Source: a virus
Strand: one strand, 5' to 3'
Length of the DNA: 64,000 nt
IMG/VR virus record: IMGVR_UViG_3300010370_000029
Coordinates: 23,474-87,473 of that record
In this document: piece by piece, positions 14,291 to 59,455 of the stretch
How the letters are laid out: each line of letters begins with the position of its first letter
Position numbering within the stretch: position 1 is the stretch's first letter
Notes under the pieces: model-generated
Told to the model about the DNA's origin: nothing
Databases searched by the model: none
Seen by the model: the letters and a program-made list of their open reading frames with translations, nothing else
Made by a program: the position numbers and the translations under genes

Positions 14291-14358
14291 ACTTTGGACT
14301 AAAGATTTTCCTCATCAGTGTTGTGGTCATGTACATTCTTGACAAGGTAATCAAATGA
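14287..14358 (+). CDS. small membrane peptide (23 aa)
   Basis: GAGG RBS; MNFGLKIFLISVVVMYILDKVIK; ATGA overlaps at both ends. Confidence 0.5.
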   Translation: MNFGLKIFLISVVVMYILDKVIK

Positions 14359-15461
14359 AAATCGTAAAGTCTAGTGATTGGCTTATTTCGGAAAACAAGG
14401 CTGGTGGTGAGAAGTTCTGGCGGTTGCATATCCTCCAAGATAACAAAGAAGGAGGATTTTATACGCAGACGGAATGGTTTCAGATTAGTAAGACAGGCCG
14501 TGAAACCAAACGACAGTTCTCTTCACCCTATTATGCCGAACCCACGAATGTCGGTCGGTCAAACGAGCGTAACTCTGAGCAGCAGGCAGAGTTTGAGTTT
14601 GACGCCGTAATCAAGAAGCAGAAGGACAAGGGATTCCGTGCGAAGGGTGAGCGAAAGAATGTTCGTCCGATGCCGATGCTTGCACATAAGTTTACGGACC
14701 ACAAGAAGAAGGTAAATTTTCCTGCATACATTCAGCCCAAGTTGAATGGTATGCGTATGTTGTTTGACGGAGAGAACGGATGGAGCCGTGGAAATAAGGA
14801 AGTGATTCCCGAAGTCATTCAGCACTTGAAGTTTGACACAGGTGGGTTTATACTTGATGGTGAGTTGATGCTTCCGAACAATCAGCTCCTTCAAGAGAGT
14901 ATGAAGGCAATCAAGAAGTATCGCCCAGAGTTGTCCTCACAACTTCTCTATCACGTTTATGATATCGTAGATGAGGAACTTCCGTATGTGAAGCGTCATC
15001 AGTTGATTCTGGACATTTGTGCGAATGCACCGAAGAATGTCAAGATTGTCAAGACTGTTCGGGCAGATGATGAATCACAGGTATCTCACCTTCATAATCT
15101 CTTTGTCCAAGACGGATACGAGGGAACGATGATTCGTGATGAGGAAATGAAGTATGAGATTGGCAAGCGTTCGTATTCACTACTTAAACTAAAGGACTTT
15201 ACAGATGCAGAGTATCGTATTGTTGATGTTGTTGACGGCGACGGTAGTGATGTCGGCCTCGCCATTTTTGAATTGGAGACTGATTCTGGTGCACGTTTCA
15301 ATTGCCGTCCAGAGGGTTCGCAGGAGAATCGTGCAGACCTATTCAAGAATCGTCGTCAGTTGGTTGGCAAGTATCTGACGGTTAGGTACTTTGAGTTGAG
15401 TAAGGACGGTATTCCGATTTTCCCCGTGGGTGTATCTATTCGTGAGTGGGGTGAATTCTAA
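14355..15461 (+). CDS. ATP-dependent DNA ligase
   Basis: PMLA, QPKLNG (motif I), LDGEL, YDIV, EGTMIR, LLKLK, OB domain ending P.FP. Confidence 0.92.
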   Translation: MKIVKSSDWLISENKAGGEKFWRLHILQDNKEGGFYTQTEWFQISKTGRETKRQFSSPYYAEPTNVGRSNERNSEQQAEFEFDAVIKKQKDKGFRAKGERKNVRPMPMLAHKFTDHKKKVNFPAYIQPKLNGMRMLFDGENGWSRGNKEVIPEVIQHLKFDTGGFILDGELMLPNNQLLQESMKAIKKYRPELSSQLLYHVYDIVDEELPYVKRHQLILDICANAPKNVKIVKTVRADDESQVSHLHNLFVQDGYEGTMIRDEEMKYEIGKRSYSLLKLKDFTDAEYRIVDVVDGDGSDVGLAIFELETDSGARFNCRPEGSQENRADLFKNRRQLVGKYLTVRYFELSKDGIPIFPVGVSIREWGEF

Positions 15462-17192: not shown

Positions 17193-17411
17193 ATGTCTAA
17201 AATTATGGTAGAGATAAGTGGAGAAATGGTAGATAATATTATTCTGCAAGAGATACAAGACACCAAAGAGATGTTGACTGAACAGTTAGAACGGGTTAAA
17301 CTAAATGGTAAAGGTGATGTTTTTGATTTGGATGTAAAGACAGATATCAAACTTATTAAGAAGCACATTGAAGCATGTGATTTGATTTACAAGTATTACG
17401 GCGGTAAGTAA
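17193..17411 (+). CDS. hypothetical protein
   Basis: AGGA RBS before ATG 17193. Confidence 0.6.
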   Translation: MSKIMVEISGEMVDNIILQEIQDTKEMLTEQLERVKLNGKGDVFDLDVKTDIKLIKKHIEACDLIYKYYGGK

Positions 17412-17417
17412 TTATTC

Positions 17418-17536
17418 GGCACCGCAGTTGGTCGGGACAACGATAGTATGACACGGGCGCTACCCGAGGTTACAAGCATACTATGCTAGCCAAGGACTAG
17501 GTGAGAGCCTAGATGGGTTCGAATCCCACGGTGCCA
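17418..17536 (+). ncRNA. non-canonical tRNA-like RNA (119 nt)
   Basis: Acceptor stem GGCACCG/CGGTGCC+A; D-like arm GTTG/CAAC; T-arm TGGG-TTCGAAT-CCCA; 8-bp ATAGTATG/CATACTAT arm with a 26-nt insert instead of an anticodon loop; extra GAGA-tetraloop hairpin. Confidence 0.75.
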
Positions 17537-17551
17537 CTTTACGAGGAAACT

Positions 17552-17917
17552 ATGGAAGATAAAAAGAATCCAAATGCGTTAACCTATGGGATATCCCCAA
17601 GTGCTCCCGCATCAATTAAACCAGTAGAAGTGGATAAGTGGGTCGGCAAAGTCGAACCCACTTTTAAGCATTATTATGAGGAACGATATAACGATTTGGT
17701 TAGACAATACGAAGAGTTGGTCAAGGATTACGAAATCAATAAGATGTGTTATGAAGCCTCGCTTGGGTTTGAACCAAATATAGGGCAGGTCTACCACTTG
17801 TATCGTAAGGGTGATGGTAGTACATTTCTATCAATCGTAGAACCACAATACGCATTTTGGGGTAATCATATTGGTAGTTATAGATTGAACGCTCAATATG
17901 CATGGGAACAAGTCTAA
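17552..17917 (+). CDS. DUF2452-like protein
   Basis: A..GFEP..GQVYHLY....G..FLSI..P motif; GAGG RBS. Confidence 0.65.
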   Translation: MEDKKNPNALTYGISPSAPASIKPVEVDKWVGKVEPTFKHYYEERYNDLVRQYEELVKDYEINKMCYEASLGFEPNIGQVYHLYRKGDGSTFLSIVEPQYAFWGNHIGSYRLNAQYAWEQV

Positions 17918-18501
17918 TGGCGTTACAAGGATACACCGTCGAGCACATCAGCTTTTCCGATACTGTCCGTTCTTTTTTACGGAAATGGCACTATTCGGAT
18001 TATGTCAATATTCAAGAAAAACACACTTTTGGATTATTTCGTGAGGGTGTGTTTTTACCTGAACTGGTTGGGATATGTATTTATACTAGGCCGGCAGGAC
18101 CAAGTGCCGCGCAGAAGTATTATCCACAAGACCCCGATAAATGTCTGGAACTCAGGCGATTGTGTTTAGTGGATGATACTCCAAAGAACGCTGAAAGTTT
18201 CTTTGTGAGTCGGACATTAAAGTGGTTACGAAAAAATACGGATTGGAAGTTTGTCGTAAGTTATGCTGACCCAGAGCAAGGACATAAAGGTATCATCTAT
18301 CGGGCAGCTAACTTTAAGTATGAAGGTATCACCGCGCCTGGGTCATCACTACTGGTAGATGGGAAACCTTTTCACATTAGAACCTTGACAATGTTGGACC
18401 GTCCGTATGGAGTAGAAATCAATCAACGATATAAAGCTGGCGACCCCGGCGTACAGATTATAAAGACGGAACCTAAGCATATTTACACATATCAACTCTA
18501 G
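17917..18501 (+). CDS. Mom-family (GNAT-fold) DNA base-modification enzyme
   Basis: F...WHYS, LELRRLC, PKNAESFFVS, VVSYADPEQGHKGIIYRAANF.Y.G. Confidence 0.8.
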   Translation: MALQGYTVEHISFSDTVRSFLRKWHYSDYVNIQEKHTFGLFREGVFLPELVGICIYTRPAGPSAAQKYYPQDPDKCLELRRLCLVDDTPKNAESFFVSRTLKWLRKNTDWKFVVSYADPEQGHKGIIYRAANFKYEGITAPGSSLLVDGKPFHIRTLTMLDRPYGVEINQRYKAGDPGVQIIKTEPKHIYTYQL

Positions 18502-21992: not shown

Positions 21993-23660
21993 ATGGCTGG
22001 GCTGACCCTCGTATCATCAGGAGCAAACGTCAAGTCGTGGACGTTTGATAAAATTTCTAAGGAGTATAGTACTACTCTCGTAGACACGCCAAAGTATCAG
22101 CGACCGGATGTGTTCGGCTTTGTACGGAACGGCAGCGGTAGTAATTGGCAGCGTAATCTCATCCGTTCTATTTTGATGGGCAATCCCATCCCTCAGCTCC
22201 ACTTTCGCTACGTATTCTCAAAGGGGCCAAATGGTCTAGAGTGGAAGTATGAGATTGTGGACGGAGGACATCGCACACGTACTGTATATTACTTTCTAAA
22301 CAATTGCATTAAAACTCCAATTGACTGTACGCTTACCGATGTTGACGGGAACCAGTACAACATTGGTGCTATGCATCTTTCACAGATTATACAGAAGTAT
22401 CCTGTGCTAGAGGATTACATCTATAATCTTTCTCTTAGCGTTGTAGAGTATGAAAATCTCACCGATGATGATGCAGAAACACTTTTTCTTACTCTTAATG
22501 ATTTGAACAAGATGTCTCCCGCTGACAAGCGGAACGCTATTAATAATATTATTGCGGATACGAACCGTAATCTTGGTGCGGTTGACTCCCCTAACGCTTT
22601 TTCGATGTTCACCAGCCGTTCATTCATTAAGAACGATTGGAAGGCTGACTACACCAGCTTGGATGCAGTCAGCCGAGAGTCGGATGAAATTGTATCGTGG
22701 GCGATGTACTATCTATACAGCGGTGGTATATTTGCAAAAGACTCCAGCGGAAAGCCGCGGTTCGCGGGTATGGACGCCCAATCAGTTCTCGACAAGATGT
22801 ATCGTGACGAGTATCTTATGAGGGAGTTGGCGGTACCGGGGTCTAAGATGGAAAAGAATCTGCGGTCACTACTGTCAATTGTTAATAATATTGTCGTTAA
22901 GAATCCGCGTCTTGATATTTTTAAAAAGGGCGGAAAGTGGTTCGCTGGTCCTCTAAAGAAGCTTATTATGCTAGTCGCTGAGATGCACAATGTAAACGGT
23001 ACTTTTAACTTTAGTAAAGTTAAAATTAATACCGACGACTTCTTTACCTCTTTCAATCGAGCGACCAGCGAACTGAAGAACGACAAGAACGTAAAGCCAC
23101 ACCTGCCATACCAGTCGTATATGCTGGTAAACAACAAGGTTCACGTAAATAGCGTTCAGCCGGATAATGTTGGTGATACAATATATCCGTTCCATAAAGT
23201 GTTTACGGGAGGCGCTCGACTTGACGATATGCTGTACATCTATTATCATTACGTCACCAAGGGTTATATGAATTTTGGAGTTACGAAATTGGATAAGCGT
23301 CGAGACTTTAATAAGGATATCGTAGATACTCTACTCACGGAACAGAAGAATTGCTGCCGGTTTTGCTCAAAGTTACTCACGGATGGTAATTACGCGGTAG
23401 ACCACATTGCTCCGCATTCTTTTGGTGGACCTACAATTCTGGAAAACAGCCAGATTCTCTGTTCTTCTTGTAACGGTCAGAAGTCGAATGGCATGACACT
23501 CCAAGATGTGGTACATCTCTGTGAGAGAATGAACGTAGACGTTCAACTTAAGGAAGTTGTAGTTGGACTGGCTCACGCAGTTATTACCTCTGGCGCAACT
23601 GACCGACTCTCGGAAGGTGATATCCGTACAGTAATTAAGCTGGTATTTGGCAAACAATAA
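21993..23660 (+). CDS. DUF262 (ParB/Srx-like) + HNH nuclease, GmrSD-like
   Basis: PKYQR, LIRSIL.G.PIP, IVDGGHR, F..LN; C-terminal CRFC..DHI.P...GG....NSQILCSSCN. Confidence 0.8.
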   Translation: MAGLTLVSSGANVKSWTFDKISKEYSTTLVDTPKYQRPDVFGFVRNGSGSNWQRNLIRSILMGNPIPQLHFRYVFSKGPNGLEWKYEIVDGGHRTRTVYYFLNNCIKTPIDCTLTDVDGNQYNIGAMHLSQIIQKYPVLEDYIYNLSLSVVEYENLTDDDAETLFLTLNDLNKMSPADKRNAINNIIADTNRNLGAVDSPNAFSMFTSRSFIKNDWKADYTSLDAVSRESDEIVSWAMYYLYSGGIFAKDSSGKPRFAGMDAQSVLDKMYRDEYLMRELAVPGSKMEKNLRSLLSIVNNIVVKNPRLDIFKKGGKWFAGPLKKLIMLVAEMHNVNGTFNFSKVKINTDDFFTSFNRATSELKNDKNVKPHLPYQSYMLVNNKVHVNSVQPDNVGDTIYPFHKVFTGGARLDDMLYIYYHYVTKGYMNFGVTKLDKRRDFNKDIVDTLLTEQKNCCRFCSKLLTDGNYAVDHIAPHSFGGPTILENSQILCSSCNGQKSNGMTLQDVVHLCERMNVDVQLKEVVVGLAHAVITSGATDRLSEGDIRTVIKLVFGKQ

Positions 23661-58090: not shown

Positions 58091-59455
58091 ATGACGCAAC
58101 ATAAGATTGTAAAGATTCCAGATTGGGTAACCCCAGAAAGTGAAGATTACCTAAATCAGATAGGTAAAGACGGATGGGAGCTGGTCCATCTTTATAATCA
58201 ACATGCATATATGAAGGCTACAACGGGTGGGTCACTTGAAAGTGGTTCACTCAATCCTGCATTAGACGCATTTGGTCGTCAACGCGTTTCTGATGTATTT
58301 ACACTTGGTGACTATAAGCATTTATATACCATCAATGATAACTTTATAGATTTCACCACGGCAAGTGCAGATATACAACACAATGTAAATCAATCATTAG
58401 TTACACTTTCCACTGGCGCAGTATCATCTAGTCGTGCAGTACATCAAACCAAAATGTATCACAACTATATGCCTGGAAAGAGTCAAATGATTCTTAGTAG
58501 TTTTGTGTTTGGTAATGCAGAAGCAGGAGTTACCAAGCGCACTGGGTACTATGATGACTATAATGGTATTTTCTTAGAACAAGACAGAACTGGAAGTTTG
58601 CAATTAGTCATTCGTTCTGCTACAAATGGTACCGCATCACTCACAGAAGAAAGAGTCAAACAAGAAAATTGGAATGTAAATACTTTGTTGTCTGGTAGTT
58701 TCCAATTAGATATGAGTAAAACACAATTATTTTACACTGACTTCCAATGGTTAGCAGTTGGTCGTGTTCGTTGTGGATTCGTATATAAAGGAACAACTAT
58801 TATCTGCCATGTGTTTGACCACACTAACGAATTAGCAATACCGTATATGAGTAATCCAAATCTTCCAGTACGTTGTGAAATATTTAACAACGGTGCAGAA
58901 GCTGGAAGTATGAAACAAATTTGTGCTACTGTTGGTAGTGAAGGTGGATATGCAGAAAGTGGTGTTGCATGGGAACTCAGTAGTCCAACACTTCGTAATG
59001 TTACGGCAAGTGCAACTATGCCAGTAATGGCAATACGATTGAAAAATTCGTATGGTGGATTACAAAATCGTGCATTCGTTCGATTAGAACAAGTTGCCGC
59101 ATTTACCGAAGACCAAACTGCGAGATACAACCTTGTTAAGATTCCAAACTCTGCTTCGCTTGTGGGTGGGTCTTGGGTATCTGTAAATGATGATTCTGTT
59201 GTAGAATATAATGTCGGTGCAACATCATACGTTTCTGGTTCAACTTTCTTAGGTGGATTCATCTTCGCAGGTGGTACTGGTGGTGGTAATAATATCGCAG
59301 GTCAACAACAAACACCCGCACCAAATGCAAAGGGTAACTTCATCGCACAAAATTTCCAAAGTAATGATAGTGAAATCTATGCACTGGTTATGAAGAATAT
59401 GACCGCTACCGCAACAGACGTTGGTTGTTCGATTACCTGGAAGGAAGTTTACTAA
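58091..59455 (+). CDS. conserved phage virion-associated protein (DAFGR.RVS family) with a DUF4177-like N-terminus
   Basis: LN.IG.DGWELV; DAFGRQRVS, Y.PGKSQ, DFQWL.VG.VR.GF, NLPVR.EI, W.E. Confidence 0.65.
   Translation: MTQHKIVKIPDWVTPESEDYLNQIGKDGWELVHLYNQHAYMKATTGGSLESGSLNPALDAFGRQRVSDVFTLGDYKHLYTINDNFIDFTTASADIQHNVNQSLVTLSTGAVSSSRAVHQTKMYHNYMPGKSQMILSSFVFGNAEAGVTKRTGYYDDYNGIFLEQDRTGSLQLVIRSATNGTASLTEERVKQENWNVNTLLSGSFQLDMSKTQLFYTDFQWLAVGRVRCGFVYKGTTIICHVFDHTNELAIPYMSNPNLPVRCEIFNNGAEAGSMKQICATVGSEGGYAESGVAWELSSPTLRNVTASATMPVMAIRLKNSYGGLQNRAFVRLEQVAAFTEDQTARYNLVKIPNSASLVGGSWVSVNDDSVVEYNVGATSYVSGSTFLGGFIFAGGTGGGNNIAGQQQTPAPNAKGNFIAQNFQSNDSEIYALVMKNMTATATDVGCSITWKEVY

What the first reader, a model, noticed from the sequence alone, without database searches (positions are those of the whole stretch)
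17418..17536. Anticodon-less tRNA-like RNA next to Mom-family enzymes: possible dedicated aminoacyl carrier for DNA modification
Seen: a 119-nt intergenic element has a perfect 7-bp acceptor stem (GGCACCG/CGGTGCC, discriminator A, no encoded CCA), a GTTG/CAAC D-like arm with GG in the loop, and a canonical TTCGAAT T-loop on a 4-bp stem. The anticodon arm is replaced by an 8-bp helix enclosing a 26-nt insert (with a CGGG/CCCG hairpin), and the variable region is about 29 nt with a CTAGGT-GAGA-GCCTAG hairpin. It keeps the tRNA elbow and acceptor end but has no 7-nt decoding loop. It lies 380 nt upstream of, and apparently in the same transcription unit as, a Mom-family gene. Known: Mu Mom has been reported to use aminoacyl-tRNA (Gly-tRNA) as its donor, while earlier work proposed acetyl-CoA; T4 encodes tRNA-like RNAs C and D of unknown function. 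Inference: this RNA could be a non-translational aminoacyl carrier for the Mom-like enzymes (A73 plus a long variable arm suits anticodon-independent synthetases such as LeuRS), or a decoy for host anticodon nucleases.
Basis: partly seen in the sequence, partly recalled or inferred. Interest (0 to 1): 0.8.

Follow-up and report, generated by a model that had tools for sequence, protein, structure and literature searches.

The report
Phage tRNA-shaped RNA without anticodon
This is a real, strongly conserved gene for a tRNA look-alike that keeps the acceptor end and elbow of a tRNA but cannot read codons; it defines an undescribed RNA family of freshwater T4-like phages, and its closeness to Mom DNA-modifying genes looks positional, not functional.

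Summary
The 119-nt element at 17418-17536 is exactly as described. It is one member of a family found in more than 100 viral and metagenomic loci. All four helices are supported by compensatory changes (17 of 22 pairs; 99% of cells paired). These are a 7-bp acceptor stem, a 4-bp D stem, an 8-10-bp helix in place of the anticodon arm, and a T stem of only 4 bp. The model scores 61-123 bits on full-length members against 32 bits or less on ordinary tRNAs. ARAGORN (default) and Rfam find nothing.

The Mom-donor idea is weakened. In this phage clade the RNA sits at a fixed place after the DNA ligase gene, at the edge of a variable gene island. The next gene may be Mom, DUF2452, an amidase or an HExxH protein. 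At least one module has no Mom gene. In a second phage group the RNA lies inside the tRNA gene cluster, once 5 nt after tRNA-Arg, which is the layout of T4 RNA D and C. Close Mom relatives in other phages have no such RNA.

My best reading is a trans-acting, non-decoding tRNA mimic matured like the phage's own tRNAs, with function unproven. The scan met this same 119-nt sequence before in two other genomes.

The parts
17418..17424 (+). Acceptor stem, 5' strand (GGCACCG)
   Evidence: Pairs with 17529-17535. Five of 7 pairs show compensatory changes across homologues. G1-C72 is the commonest pair, G2-C71 is invariant and C3-G70 is nearly invariant.
17425..17426 (+). Linker C8 A9 (C8 replaces the usual U8)
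   Evidence: CA or CG in all members.
17427..17441 (+). D arm: stem GTTG/CAAC with the 7-nt loop GTCGGGA (contains the G18 G19 equivalents)
   Evidence: Three of 4 stem pairs covary (GTTG/CAAC, GTCG/CGAC, GACT/AGTC, GTGG/CCAC). The loop is invariant except for one GACGGGA.
17442..17442 (+). G26 equivalent
   Evidence: Invariant.
17443..17484 (+). Rebuilt 'anticodon' arm: 8-bp helix ATAGTATG/CATACTAT around a 26-nt loop. The loop holds the conserved motif GGG(Y)(K)CGCTAC(Y)..GTTA and, in this subtype, the inner hairpin CGGG-CGCTA-CCCG (17454-17466).
   Evidence: Seven of 8 helix pairs have compensatory changes. The helix is 8-10 bp in relatives. No conserved 7-nt loop or anticodon is present.
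17485..17496 (+). Conserved single-stranded segment GCTA(N)GCCAAGGA at the start of the variable region
   Evidence: GCCAAGGA is identical in all members and GCTA in nearly all (GTTA in two). No pairing partner was found.
17497..17512 (+). Optional GNRA-capped variable hairpin (CTAGGT-GAGA-GCCTAG)
   Evidence: A 14-nt insertion present in about half of the family. Relatives have CTTAGG-GAAA-CCTATG, and CTTAGA-GAAA-TCTATG with a G-C to A-U change.
17514..17528 (+). T arm: 4-bp stem TGGG/CCCA with the loop TTCGAAT
   Evidence: The loop is invariant. Stem variants GGGG/CCCC, GGAG/CTCC and GAGG/CCTC covary. Only 4 nt separate the loop from the acceptor strand in every member.
17529..17536 (+). Acceptor stem 3' strand (CGGTGCC) plus discriminator A17536. 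CTT follows, so CCA is not encoded.
   Evidence: The discriminator is A in most members and G, C or U in others. Many of these phages' own CCA-less tRNA genes are followed by the same C-T-T.
17543..17917 (+). Next gene, with RBS GAGGA and ATG at 17552: a DUF2452 protein. Context only.
   Evidence: Pfam PF10504, 1e-08. No terminator-like site lies between the RNA and this gene.
17917..18501 (+). Mom-family gene 1. Context only: a member of the variable island next to the RNA.
   Evidence: PF25680, 1.3e-35. The census shows which genes occupy this slot.
14355..15461 (+). ATP-dependent DNA ligase. Context only: the conserved upstream landmark of the RNA in group-1 phages.
   Evidence: PF01068, 1.4e-19. 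Synteny.

Best explanation
The element is the gene of a stable, non-decoding, tRNA-shaped RNA. It belongs to an undescribed family confined to a clade of freshwater T4-like phages that also carry about 25-31 tRNA genes and a tmRNA.

Shown: a conserved L-shape scaffold made of a 7-bp acceptor stem, D arm, T arm, and D- and T-loops that can form the elbow. The anticodon arm is replaced by a covarying 8-10-bp helix whose large loop carries an invariant GGG..CGCUAC motif. A 12-nt invariant single strand, GCUA(N)GCCAAGGA, lies in the variable region. There is one copy per genome.

Inferred: it is transcribed within a polycistronic unit and cut out by the tRNA maturation enzymes (RNase P, a 3' endonuclease, CCA-adding enzyme), just like the phage's CCA-less tRNAs. 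It then acts in trans as a tRNA mimic. The acceptor end and elbow would engage a tRNA-binding partner, and the rebuilt arm and conserved single strand would serve as a specificity handle for a phage or host protein. The shortened 11-bp acceptor/T stack and the missing anticodon would keep it out of decoding.

Its closeness to Mom genes is positional. In group-1 phages the RNA marks the border of a hypervariable accessory-gene island. In group-2 phages it sits in the tRNA cluster, the layout of T4 RNAs C and D. It resembles those two RNAs in context and shares a short motif with RNA D. The actual partner and biological role are unknown.
For: Structure and selection:
- Covariation in all four helices.
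- Model R1 gives 61-123 bits for full-length family members and 32 bits or less for ordinary tRNAs.

Distribution:
- Not a known family. ARAGORN finds 0 genes, Rfam has 0 matches at gathering score, and the best sub-threshold match is tRNA-Sec at 16.3 bits against a cut-off of 47.
- Seen only in viral and metagenome contigs here. There are 32 viral and 82 metagenome pattern hits, 65 of them confirmed by the model. None of the 15 pattern hits in 185,579 species genomes is a family member.
- Runs holding the sequence are mostly freshwater, drinking-water and aquatic metagenomes.
- One copy in each of 28 records.
- These phages have large tRNA sets and a tmRNA. The RNA lies in the tRNA cluster in G012 and 5 nt after tRNA-Arg in G027.

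Maturation:
- The phage tRNAs lack CCA, and many are followed by C-T-T as this RNA is.

Independence from Mom:
- Fixed position after the ligase gene, with a variable next gene starting 1-22 nt after the RNA in most loci: Mom, DUF2452, Amidase_2 or an HExxH protein.
- Mom-less modules and Mom relatives without the RNA.

T4 parallel:
- In T4 the order is tRNA-Arg, rnaD, rnaC.
- The invariant rnaD hairpin loop GUCGCUA carries the family's motif GGGTCGCTAC.
Against: No direct evidence of expression, processing, CCA addition or a partner. One true metatranscriptome contig of a relative ends at C72 but carries about 50 nt of 5' leader, and contigs cannot define ends.

The motif shared with T4 rnaD scores only 7.7 bits. 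That gives E = 1.9 for a T4-sized genome, and the match is suggestive only if the search space is restricted to rnaC and rnaD. R1 does not detect rnaC or rnaD on the correct strand.

Fifteen of 28 viral records do have a Mom gene within 600 nt of the RNA, in three different arrangements. A functional link in that subset therefore cannot be dismissed.

One near-identical relative (L002/L022) lacks the first 8 nt because of an 80-nt deletion. The RNA may be dispensable, or that assembly may be defective.
Confidence: 0.6

Rival explanations
1. Dedicated aminoacyl carrier. After CCA addition the RNA is charged by an anticodon-independent host synthetase. It then donates the aminoacyl group to the phage's Mom-family GNAT enzymes for DNA hypermodification, and is kept away from the ribosome by the missing anticodon and the 11-bp acceptor/T stack.
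For: Mu Mom transfers glycine from Gly-tRNAGly to N6 of dA in DNA (PMC13219725). Staphylococcus keeps non-proteogenic tRNAGly isoacceptors for the Fem transferases (PMC7826273).

The RNA lies less than 40 nt upstream of Mom in 7 viral records and about 400 nt upstream in 5. It lies 190 nt downstream of a different Mom subtype in 3.

The top of the acceptor stem (G1-C72, G2-C71, C3-G70) is conserved while pairs 4-7 vary freely, as expected of an identity set.
Against: The RNA persists where Mom is absent: the G017 module, and group-2 phages where it lies in the tRNA cluster.

Whatever gene follows the RNA starts just as close to it, so adjacency is not specific to Mom.

Mom homologues of about 70% identity occur without the RNA, and Mu Mom works with host tRNAGly.

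The acceptor end (G1-G2-C3, A73) does not match the bacterial Gly set recalled from general knowledge (G1-C2-G3, U73). The discriminator and pair 1:72 vary within the family.

The long variable arm that a SerRS-type recognition would need is missing in half of the members.
Confidence: 0.12
2. Decoy or sponge for a host factor that acts on the acceptor end or elbow of tRNAs. Examples are toxins that pyrophosphorylate, extend or acetylate the 3' end, or a processing nuclease. The RNA would protect the phage's large tRNA pool.
For: It sits beside a variable island of accessory or counter-defence-type genes (Mom, HExxH protein, amidase), and a GmrSD-like nuclease gene lies nearby. These phages invest heavily in tRNAs and a tmRNA. 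The acceptor end and elbow are the best-conserved tRNA features.
Against: A single-copy gene, with no evidence of high abundance. The invariant loop and single-strand motifs are not needed for a simple decoy. No candidate target was identified. A decoy for anticodon nucleases is implausible without an anticodon loop.
Confidence: 0.13
3. Mainly a cis-acting element. A tRNA-like processing and stability signal recruits RNase P or a 3' endonuclease to split the polycistronic transcript, defining the 5' end of the downstream mRNA, whose RBS follows within 1-22 nt in most loci.
For: In most loci the next ORF starts 1-22 nt after the RNA, whatever gene it is. No terminator-like site lies nearby. The upstream ORF's stop codon lies 6 nt before the RNA.
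Against: A processing signal does not need an invariant 11-nt loop motif, an invariant 12-nt single strand and a covarying 8-10-bp extra helix. In group 2 the RNA lies among tRNA genes that already provide such signals.
Confidence: 0.1
4. An unusual decoding tRNA: intron-containing tRNA-Ser(ACU), as ARAGORN calls it in intron mode, or a decaying pseudo-tRNA or attP remnant.
For: ARAGORN -i calls tRNA-Ser(ACT) with a 30-nt insert at position 32/33.
Against: The supposed anticodon loop AUACUAU is the 3' strand of the long helix. It covaries with the 5' strand in relatives (CTTATTAG, TTTACTAC, TATATCGT), so no anticodon is conserved. The insert position is non-canonical, and there is no group I intron or bulge-helix-bulge signature. 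The second hit of the same ARAGORN mode lies inside a 454-aa ORF, so the mode is permissive. Strong purifying selection and covariation exclude decay. Covariation in the acceptor stem excludes an attP copy of a host tRNA.
Confidence: 0.02

Closest known systems
Phage T4 stable RNAs C and D (species 1 and 2 RNAs; rnaC 139 nt, rnaD 119 nt), function unknown for about 50 years
   Same: Small stable RNAs of a T4-type phage encoded with the tRNA genes. In T4 the order is tRNA-Arg, rnaD, rnaC. In G027 this RNA starts 5 nt after tRNA-Arg, and in G012 it lies inside the tRNA cluster. rnaC has a TTCGAAT T arm and a closing terminal stem. The invariant 5' hairpin loop of rnaD, GUCGCUA, carries the family's loop motif GGGTCGCTAC. 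The roles of the T4 RNAs are unknown (PMC3014915).
   Different: No significant overall similarity: R1 does not hit them on the right strand, and the motif match is 7.7 bits. rnaD has no T arm and rnaC has no D arm. Here one RNA combines a complete tRNA scaffold with the motif loop. Homology is a lead, not shown.
Non-proteogenic tRNAGly isoacceptors of Staphylococcus aureus, donors for FmhB/FemA/FemB (PMC7826273)
   Same: tRNA-shaped molecules specialised for a job outside the ribosome, with D- and T-arm changes that reduce use in translation. The client enzymes are GNAT-fold, aminoacyl-tRNA-dependent transferases, the class Mom belongs to (PMC13219725).
   Different: Those are complete tRNAs with a Gly anticodon, charged by GlyRS. 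This RNA has no anticodon arm, no Gly acceptor identity and no shown charging, and its distribution is not tied to the transferase gene.
tRNA-like domain of tmRNA
   Same: Acceptor stem plus T arm, with a long helix where the anticodon stem would be. Non-decoding. These phages also encode a tmRNA.
   Different: tmRNA has G3-U70 (alanine identity; from general knowledge), no D stem, pseudoknots and a tag reading frame, and is about 340 nt. This RNA has C3-G70, a full D arm and no reading frame, and ARAGORN does not call it a tmRNA.
Canonical tRNA (Rfam RF00005) and tRNA-Sec (RF01852)
   Same: 7-bp acceptor stem, 4-bp D stem with a GG loop, TTCGAAT T-loop, unpaired discriminator, and the CCA-less gene style of the phage's own tRNAs.
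   Different: No 5-bp anticodon stem with a 7-nt loop. The T stem is 4 bp instead of 5. C8 and G14 replace U8 and A14. The variable region carries an invariant 12-nt strand. No Rfam tRNA match, and tRNA-Sec scores 16.3 bits against a cut-off of 47.

Membership tests
Canonical tRNA | Detected by tRNA finders and the Rfam tRNA model | tested here: not met
   ARAGORN default finds 0 genes. Rfam gives 0 matches at gathering score, and no RF00005 match up to E = 10.
Canonical tRNA | 5-bp anticodon stem with a 7-nt loop and a conserved anticodon | tested here: not met
   The arm is an 8-10-bp covarying helix with a 19-30-nt loop in all 50 or so distinct members.
Canonical tRNA | 7-bp acceptor stem, D arm with GG, T-loop TTCRANY | tested here: met
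   However, the T stem is 4 bp, giving an 11-bp acceptor/T stack.
Intron-containing tRNA | A conserved anticodon stem-loop is restored once a defined intron is removed | tested here: not met
   The 'loop' in the ARAGORN -i model is the 3' strand of the covarying helix, and it is not conserved in relatives.
tRNA-Sec (RF01852) | Score at or above the gathering cut-off of 47 bits; 8+5 or 9+4 acceptor/T stack | tested here: not met
   16.3 bits, E = 1.3. The stack is 7+4.
tmRNA | tRNA-like domain with G3-U70, a tag reading frame and pseudoknots | tested here: not met
   C3-G70. ARAGORN tmRNA mode finds 0 in this contig. True tmRNAs lie elsewhere in related phages.
T4 rnaC/rnaD-type stable RNAs | Encoded next to or within the phage tRNA cluster, same strand | tested here: met
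   Met in group-2 phages (G012, G027). Not met in this window, where the RNA lies between the ligase and clamp genes.
T4 rnaC/rnaD-type stable RNAs | Sequence or structure homology to rnaC or rnaD | tested here: inconclusive
   R1 gives no significant same-strand hit. The shared motif GGGTCGCTAC in the invariant rnaD hairpin scores 7.7 bits, E = 1.9 genome-wide.
Dedicated non-ribosomal aminoacyl carrier (Staphylococcus NP-tRNAGly type) | Aminoacylated by a synthetase | not testable with these tools
   Needs an in-vitro charging assay. The discriminator and pair 1:72 vary within the family.
Dedicated non-ribosomal aminoacyl carrier (Staphylococcus NP-tRNAGly type) | Co-distribution with the client transferase (Mom) | tested here: not met
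   The RNA occurs without Mom (G017 and group 2). Mom relatives occur without the RNA.

The most novel reading that the evidence does not exclude
In the Mom-bearing phages, the RNA is a purpose-built, anticodon-less aminoacyl carrier that feeds tRNA-dependent DNA hypermodification by the Mom-fold enzymes. This would be the first RNA evolved solely as a donor for DNA modification. The conserved loop it shares with T4 RNA D would be the handle recognised by a factor common to T4-type phages, which would also give T4 RNAs C and D their first function.
Probability: 0.12. Interest if true: 0.9.

Novelty: new variant of a known kind. Interest (0 to 1): 0.6.

Why it matters
Non-decoding tRNA look-alikes are rare. 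Each well-understood case, such as tmRNA, Y-RNA-type tRNA modules and the Staphylococcus cell-wall tRNAs, revealed a new use of the tRNA scaffold.

This family has unusually clean comparative support and sharply defined invariant motifs, so the search for a partner is a tractable experiment. It also offers the first comparative handle on T4 RNAs C and D, which have had no known function since the 1970s.

The work also shows that the attractive link to tRNA-dependent DNA modification by Mom rests mostly on gene neighbourhood in one phage lineage. That should temper claims based on adjacency alone.

Tried and rejected
- **Rfam and ARAGORN:** Rfam at gathering and at E up to 10, and ARAGORN in default and tmRNA modes, gave nothing. 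ARAGORN intron mode is permissive. Its second call (window 58701-58835) lies inside a 454-aa ORF.
- **Phage collection:** A DNA search of annotated phages with the 1.5-kb region matched only the Mom coding part. No cultured phage carries the RNA.
- **Species genomes:** The 15 pattern hits in species genomes were not family members.
- **Public runs:** All four laid runs were contigs. They give no information on 5' or 3' ends, CCA or abundance. The uncovered flanks mean nothing.
- **Antisense targets:** A search for targets of the conserved loop in four phage records found only the gene's own opposite strand and chance near-matches.
- **Pseudoknot:** Inspection by eye for pairing between the loop motif and the GCUA(N)GCCAAGGA strand found only a 3-bp GGC/GCC possibility and no covariation.
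- **Parent tRNA:** No clear parent was found among the phages' own tRNAs. The best partial resemblances are the D loops of tRNA-Glu and tRNA-Asp, and the acceptor stem of G027 tRNA-Met. GCCAAGGA also occurs in tRNA-Gly(GCC) anticodon arms, which accounts for 47 ordinary tRNA hits, but no matching stem exists here.
- **c10 protein:** I tested whether this protein, which follows the RNA in some Mom-less loci, could be another tRNA-dependent transferase. It has no Pfam family and carries an invariant HExxH motif, so it is more likely a metalloprotein.
- **Group-2 neighbours:** These are a DsbA-like regulator, an endolysin-like protein, a non-specific endonuclease and a phosphoesterase. None is tRNA-related.
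- **Not run:** No structure or complex prediction, because no tool here models RNA.

Full report
**1. The observation**

The sequence at 17418-17536 reads as follows:
- GGCACCG, the 5' strand of the acceptor stem
- CA
- GTTG-GTCGGGA-CAAC, the D arm
- G
- ATAGTATG, then 26 nt containing CGGG-CGCTA-CCCG, then CATACTAT
- GCTAGCCAAGGA
- CTAGGT-GAGA-GCCTAG
- A
- TGGG-TTCGAAT-CCCA, the T arm
- CGGTGCC, the 3' strand of the acceptor stem
- A, the discriminator

It fills the gap between an 81-aa ORF that ends at 17411 and a DUF2452 gene. That gene has its RBS at 17543 and its ATG at 17552. A Mom-family gene follows at 17917.

ARAGORN in default mode finds no tRNA or tmRNA in the window. Rfam finds nothing at gathering thresholds. 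The best sub-threshold match is tRNA-Sec at 16.3 bits against a cut-off of 47.

Only 4 nt lie between the T-loop and the acceptor strand, so the acceptor/T stack is 11 bp instead of 12.

**2. It is a conserved RNA family**

- The window comes from an 87-kb IMG/VR phage contig, estimated to be 46% complete.
- Close relatives found through the DUF2452 protein already showed a variant with compensatory changes in the acceptor stem and the long helix.
- Three DNA patterns taken from conserved segments recovered further members from viral contigs and metagenomes.
- A covariance model built from six sequences (R1) separates the family cleanly. Full-length members score 61-123 bits and ordinary tRNAs score 32 bits or less.
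- In 15 distinct sequences, 98.5% of cells are paired and 17 of 22 pairs carry compensatory changes. In 40 distinct metagenomic sequences the figures are 99.3% and 17 of 22. No shuffle of 500 reaches these values, and registers slid by one to three columns collapse to 35-60% pairing.
- All four helices covary, including the D stem (GTTG/CAAC, GTCG/CGAC, GACT/AGTC, GTGG/CCAC).
- Invariant or nearly invariant: C8, the D loop GTCGGGA, G26, the loop motif GGG(Y)(K)CGCTAC(Y) followed by GTTA, the single strand GCTA(N)GCCAAGGA, the T-loop, and G2-C71 and C3-G70.
- Variable: acceptor pairs 4-7; pair 1:72 (G-C, G-U, U-A or A-U); the discriminator (mostly A, also G, C and U); the length of the long helix (8-10 bp, sometimes with an internal loop); and the presence of the GNRA-capped variable hairpin, a 14-nt insertion in about half of the members.

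This rules out a decaying pseudo-tRNA and an attP copy of a host tRNA.

It also rules out ARAGORN's intron-mode call of tRNA-Ser(ACU). That model's 'anticodon loop' is the covarying 3' strand of the long helix and is not conserved.

**3. Where it occurs**

All confirmed members lie in viral or metagenome contigs. None of the 15 pattern hits in one genome for each of 185,579 species is a family member. Public runs that hold the sequence are mostly freshwater, drinking-water and aquatic metagenomes.

Each of 28 viral records has exactly one copy. The phages are T4-like in their replication genes: ligase, sliding clamp and clamp loader (and earlier first-stage notes seen). They are rich in translation RNAs. 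G016 (167 kb, 89% complete) has 31 tRNA genes and a tmRNA. G012 has 24 tRNA genes and a tmRNA.

**4. The link to Mom**

For the link:
- Mu Mom is now known to transfer glycine from Gly-tRNAGly to N6 of adenine in DNA (PMC13219725).
- Eighteen of the 28 records contain Mom genes.
- The RNA lies less than 40 nt upstream of Mom in seven records and about 400 nt upstream in five. It lies 190 nt downstream of a different Mom subtype in three.

Against the link:
- A census of 102 instances shows that in group-1 phages the RNA has a fixed place after the DNA ligase gene and a small ORF. In most loci the next gene starts 1-22 nt after the RNA. That gene is Mom, DUF2452, an Amidase_2 protein or an HExxH protein of unknown family, in many combinations, followed by a conserved small gene and the clamp gene. 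The RNA therefore marks the border of a variable island, and Mom is one of several cargo genes there.
- G017 has the RNA and the whole module but neither Mom copy in its record. It carries a TET-associated glycosyltransferase and a methylase-like gene instead.
- In group-2 phages the RNA lies in a different region altogether: inside the tRNA cluster in G012 and 5 nt downstream of tRNA-Arg(TCG) in G027. Records of up to 62 kb hold no Mom gene.
- Conversely, 33 loci in other phage contigs encode Mom proteins 61-74% identical to this window's Mom-1 but have no family member within 3 kb. Twelve of their records, up to 105 kb long, have none anywhere.
- The acceptor end does not match the bacterial glycine identity set as I recall it. 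The variable discriminator and first pair do not fit one conserved synthetase identity.

The records are fragments, though, so a role in the Mom-bearing lineage cannot be excluded.

**5. What it most likely is**

The RNA keeps the parts of a tRNA that maturation enzymes and many tRNA-binding proteins read: the acceptor helix, discriminator, elbow-forming D and T loops, and the G26 junction.

The phages' own tRNA genes lack CCA, and many are followed by C-T-T, as this RNA is. No terminator separates it from its neighbours.

I infer that it is excised from a polycistronic transcript by RNase P and a 3' endonuclease, receives CCA, and accumulates as a stable RNA that cannot decode.

The invariant loop and the invariant single strand are the obvious candidates for a specific partner, and none could be identified. 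No antisense target exists in the phage records, no convincing internal pairing was found, and the neighbouring proteins are unrelated to tRNA biology.

One true metatranscriptome run contains a 168-nt contig of a relative that ends at C72. This is compatible with a 3' end there but proves nothing.

**6. Comparison with known RNAs**

The closest analogues in context are T4 RNAs C and D, which have no known function (PMC3014915):
- They follow tRNA-Arg in the T4 tRNA cluster, the same layout as in G027.
- rnaC has a TTCGAAT T arm and a closing terminal stem.
- The 5' 45 nt of rnaD are invariant across five T-even-type phages. They form a 5-bp hairpin whose 7-nt loop GUCGCUA lies within GGGTCGCTAC, an exact instance of the family's loop motif.
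- The match is short. It scores 7.7 bits and has E = 1.9 for a T4-sized genome, or roughly 1e-3 if only rnaC and rnaD are counted as the search space.
- R1 does not detect either RNA.

I therefore report this as a lead, not as homology.

The Staphylococcus non-proteogenic tRNAGly species (PMC7826273) are the best mechanistic precedent for a tRNA set aside for a GNAT-fold transferase, but they are complete, anticodon-bearing tRNAs. The tRNA-like domain of tmRNA shares the idea of a long helix in place of the anticodon stem but differs in every defining feature.

**7. Verdict**

The RNA is real and belongs to an undescribed family under strong structural selection. The Mom-donor reading is only partly supported and is now a minority hypothesis, at about 0.12.

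The scan met this identical 119-nt sequence before in two other genomes, and an earlier follow-up favoured the Mom idea. The new points here are:
- the family's second genomic context, inside tRNA clusters
- the variable-island explanation for Mom adjacency
- Mom relatives that lack the RNA
- the 11-bp acceptor/T stack
- the motif shared with T4 RNA D

Noticed in passing
G016:C1:58231-58319 (L258) and G012:C1:14397-14483, minus strand (L265): Both phages encode a normally shaped class-II tRNA that ARAGORN calls tRNA-Ser with anticodon ACT (A34). This is an unusual anticodon for bacteria or phages, and it could mean A-to-I editing or a miscall.
   Followed up: no
G016:C1:38245-38582, G012:C1:26346-26683, G027:C1:24312-24651: These freshwater T4-like phages each carry a tmRNA gene with the tag GNYNLALAA, as well as large tRNA sets where the record covers the cluster: 31 genes in G016 and 24 in G012.
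   Followed up: no
L002:2205-2324 and L022:11647-11766 (IMGVR_UViG_3300008261_000032): A contig nearly identical to the window has an 80-nt deletion, equivalent to window 17346-17425. It fuses the upstream ORF to position 9 of the RNA and removes the 5' acceptor strand. This is either a natural loss-of-function variant or an assembly artefact.
   Followed up: partly
L027:4060-4974, with homologues P0001-P0042: A 285-305-aa protein family seen only in this phage clade, with no Pfam match. It has an invariant HExxH motif (LYHEMIHW) and many invariant residues, and it is a frequent cargo gene of the island next to the RNA.
   Followed up: partly
L148:10242-11489 and L148:9012-10238, minus strand (G017); also L150: In Mom-less relatives, the slots held here by the DruA-like and GT4 genes are occupied by a TET-associated glycosyltransferase (PF20691) and a methylase-like protein. 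The same replication module therefore hosts alternative DNA-modification cassettes.
   Followed up: no
window 21993-23657: A 555-aa protein with an N-terminal GmrSD/DUF262 domain and an HNH nuclease domain sits inside the modification cluster.
   Followed up: no
window 58701-58835, minus strand: The ARAGORN intron-mode call of tRNA-Gly(ACC) with a 39-nt intron lies inside a 454-aa ORF (58091-59455). It is a false positive.
   Followed up: yes
L151:2054-2172, minus strand (T4 rnaD), with L272-L275: Across five T-even-type phages, the first 45 nt and the last 25 nt or so of rnaD are invariant while the middle diverges. The 5' part forms an anticodon-arm-like hairpin: a 5-bp stem and the 7-nt loop GUCGCUA, with U at the position of U33.
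   Followed up: partly
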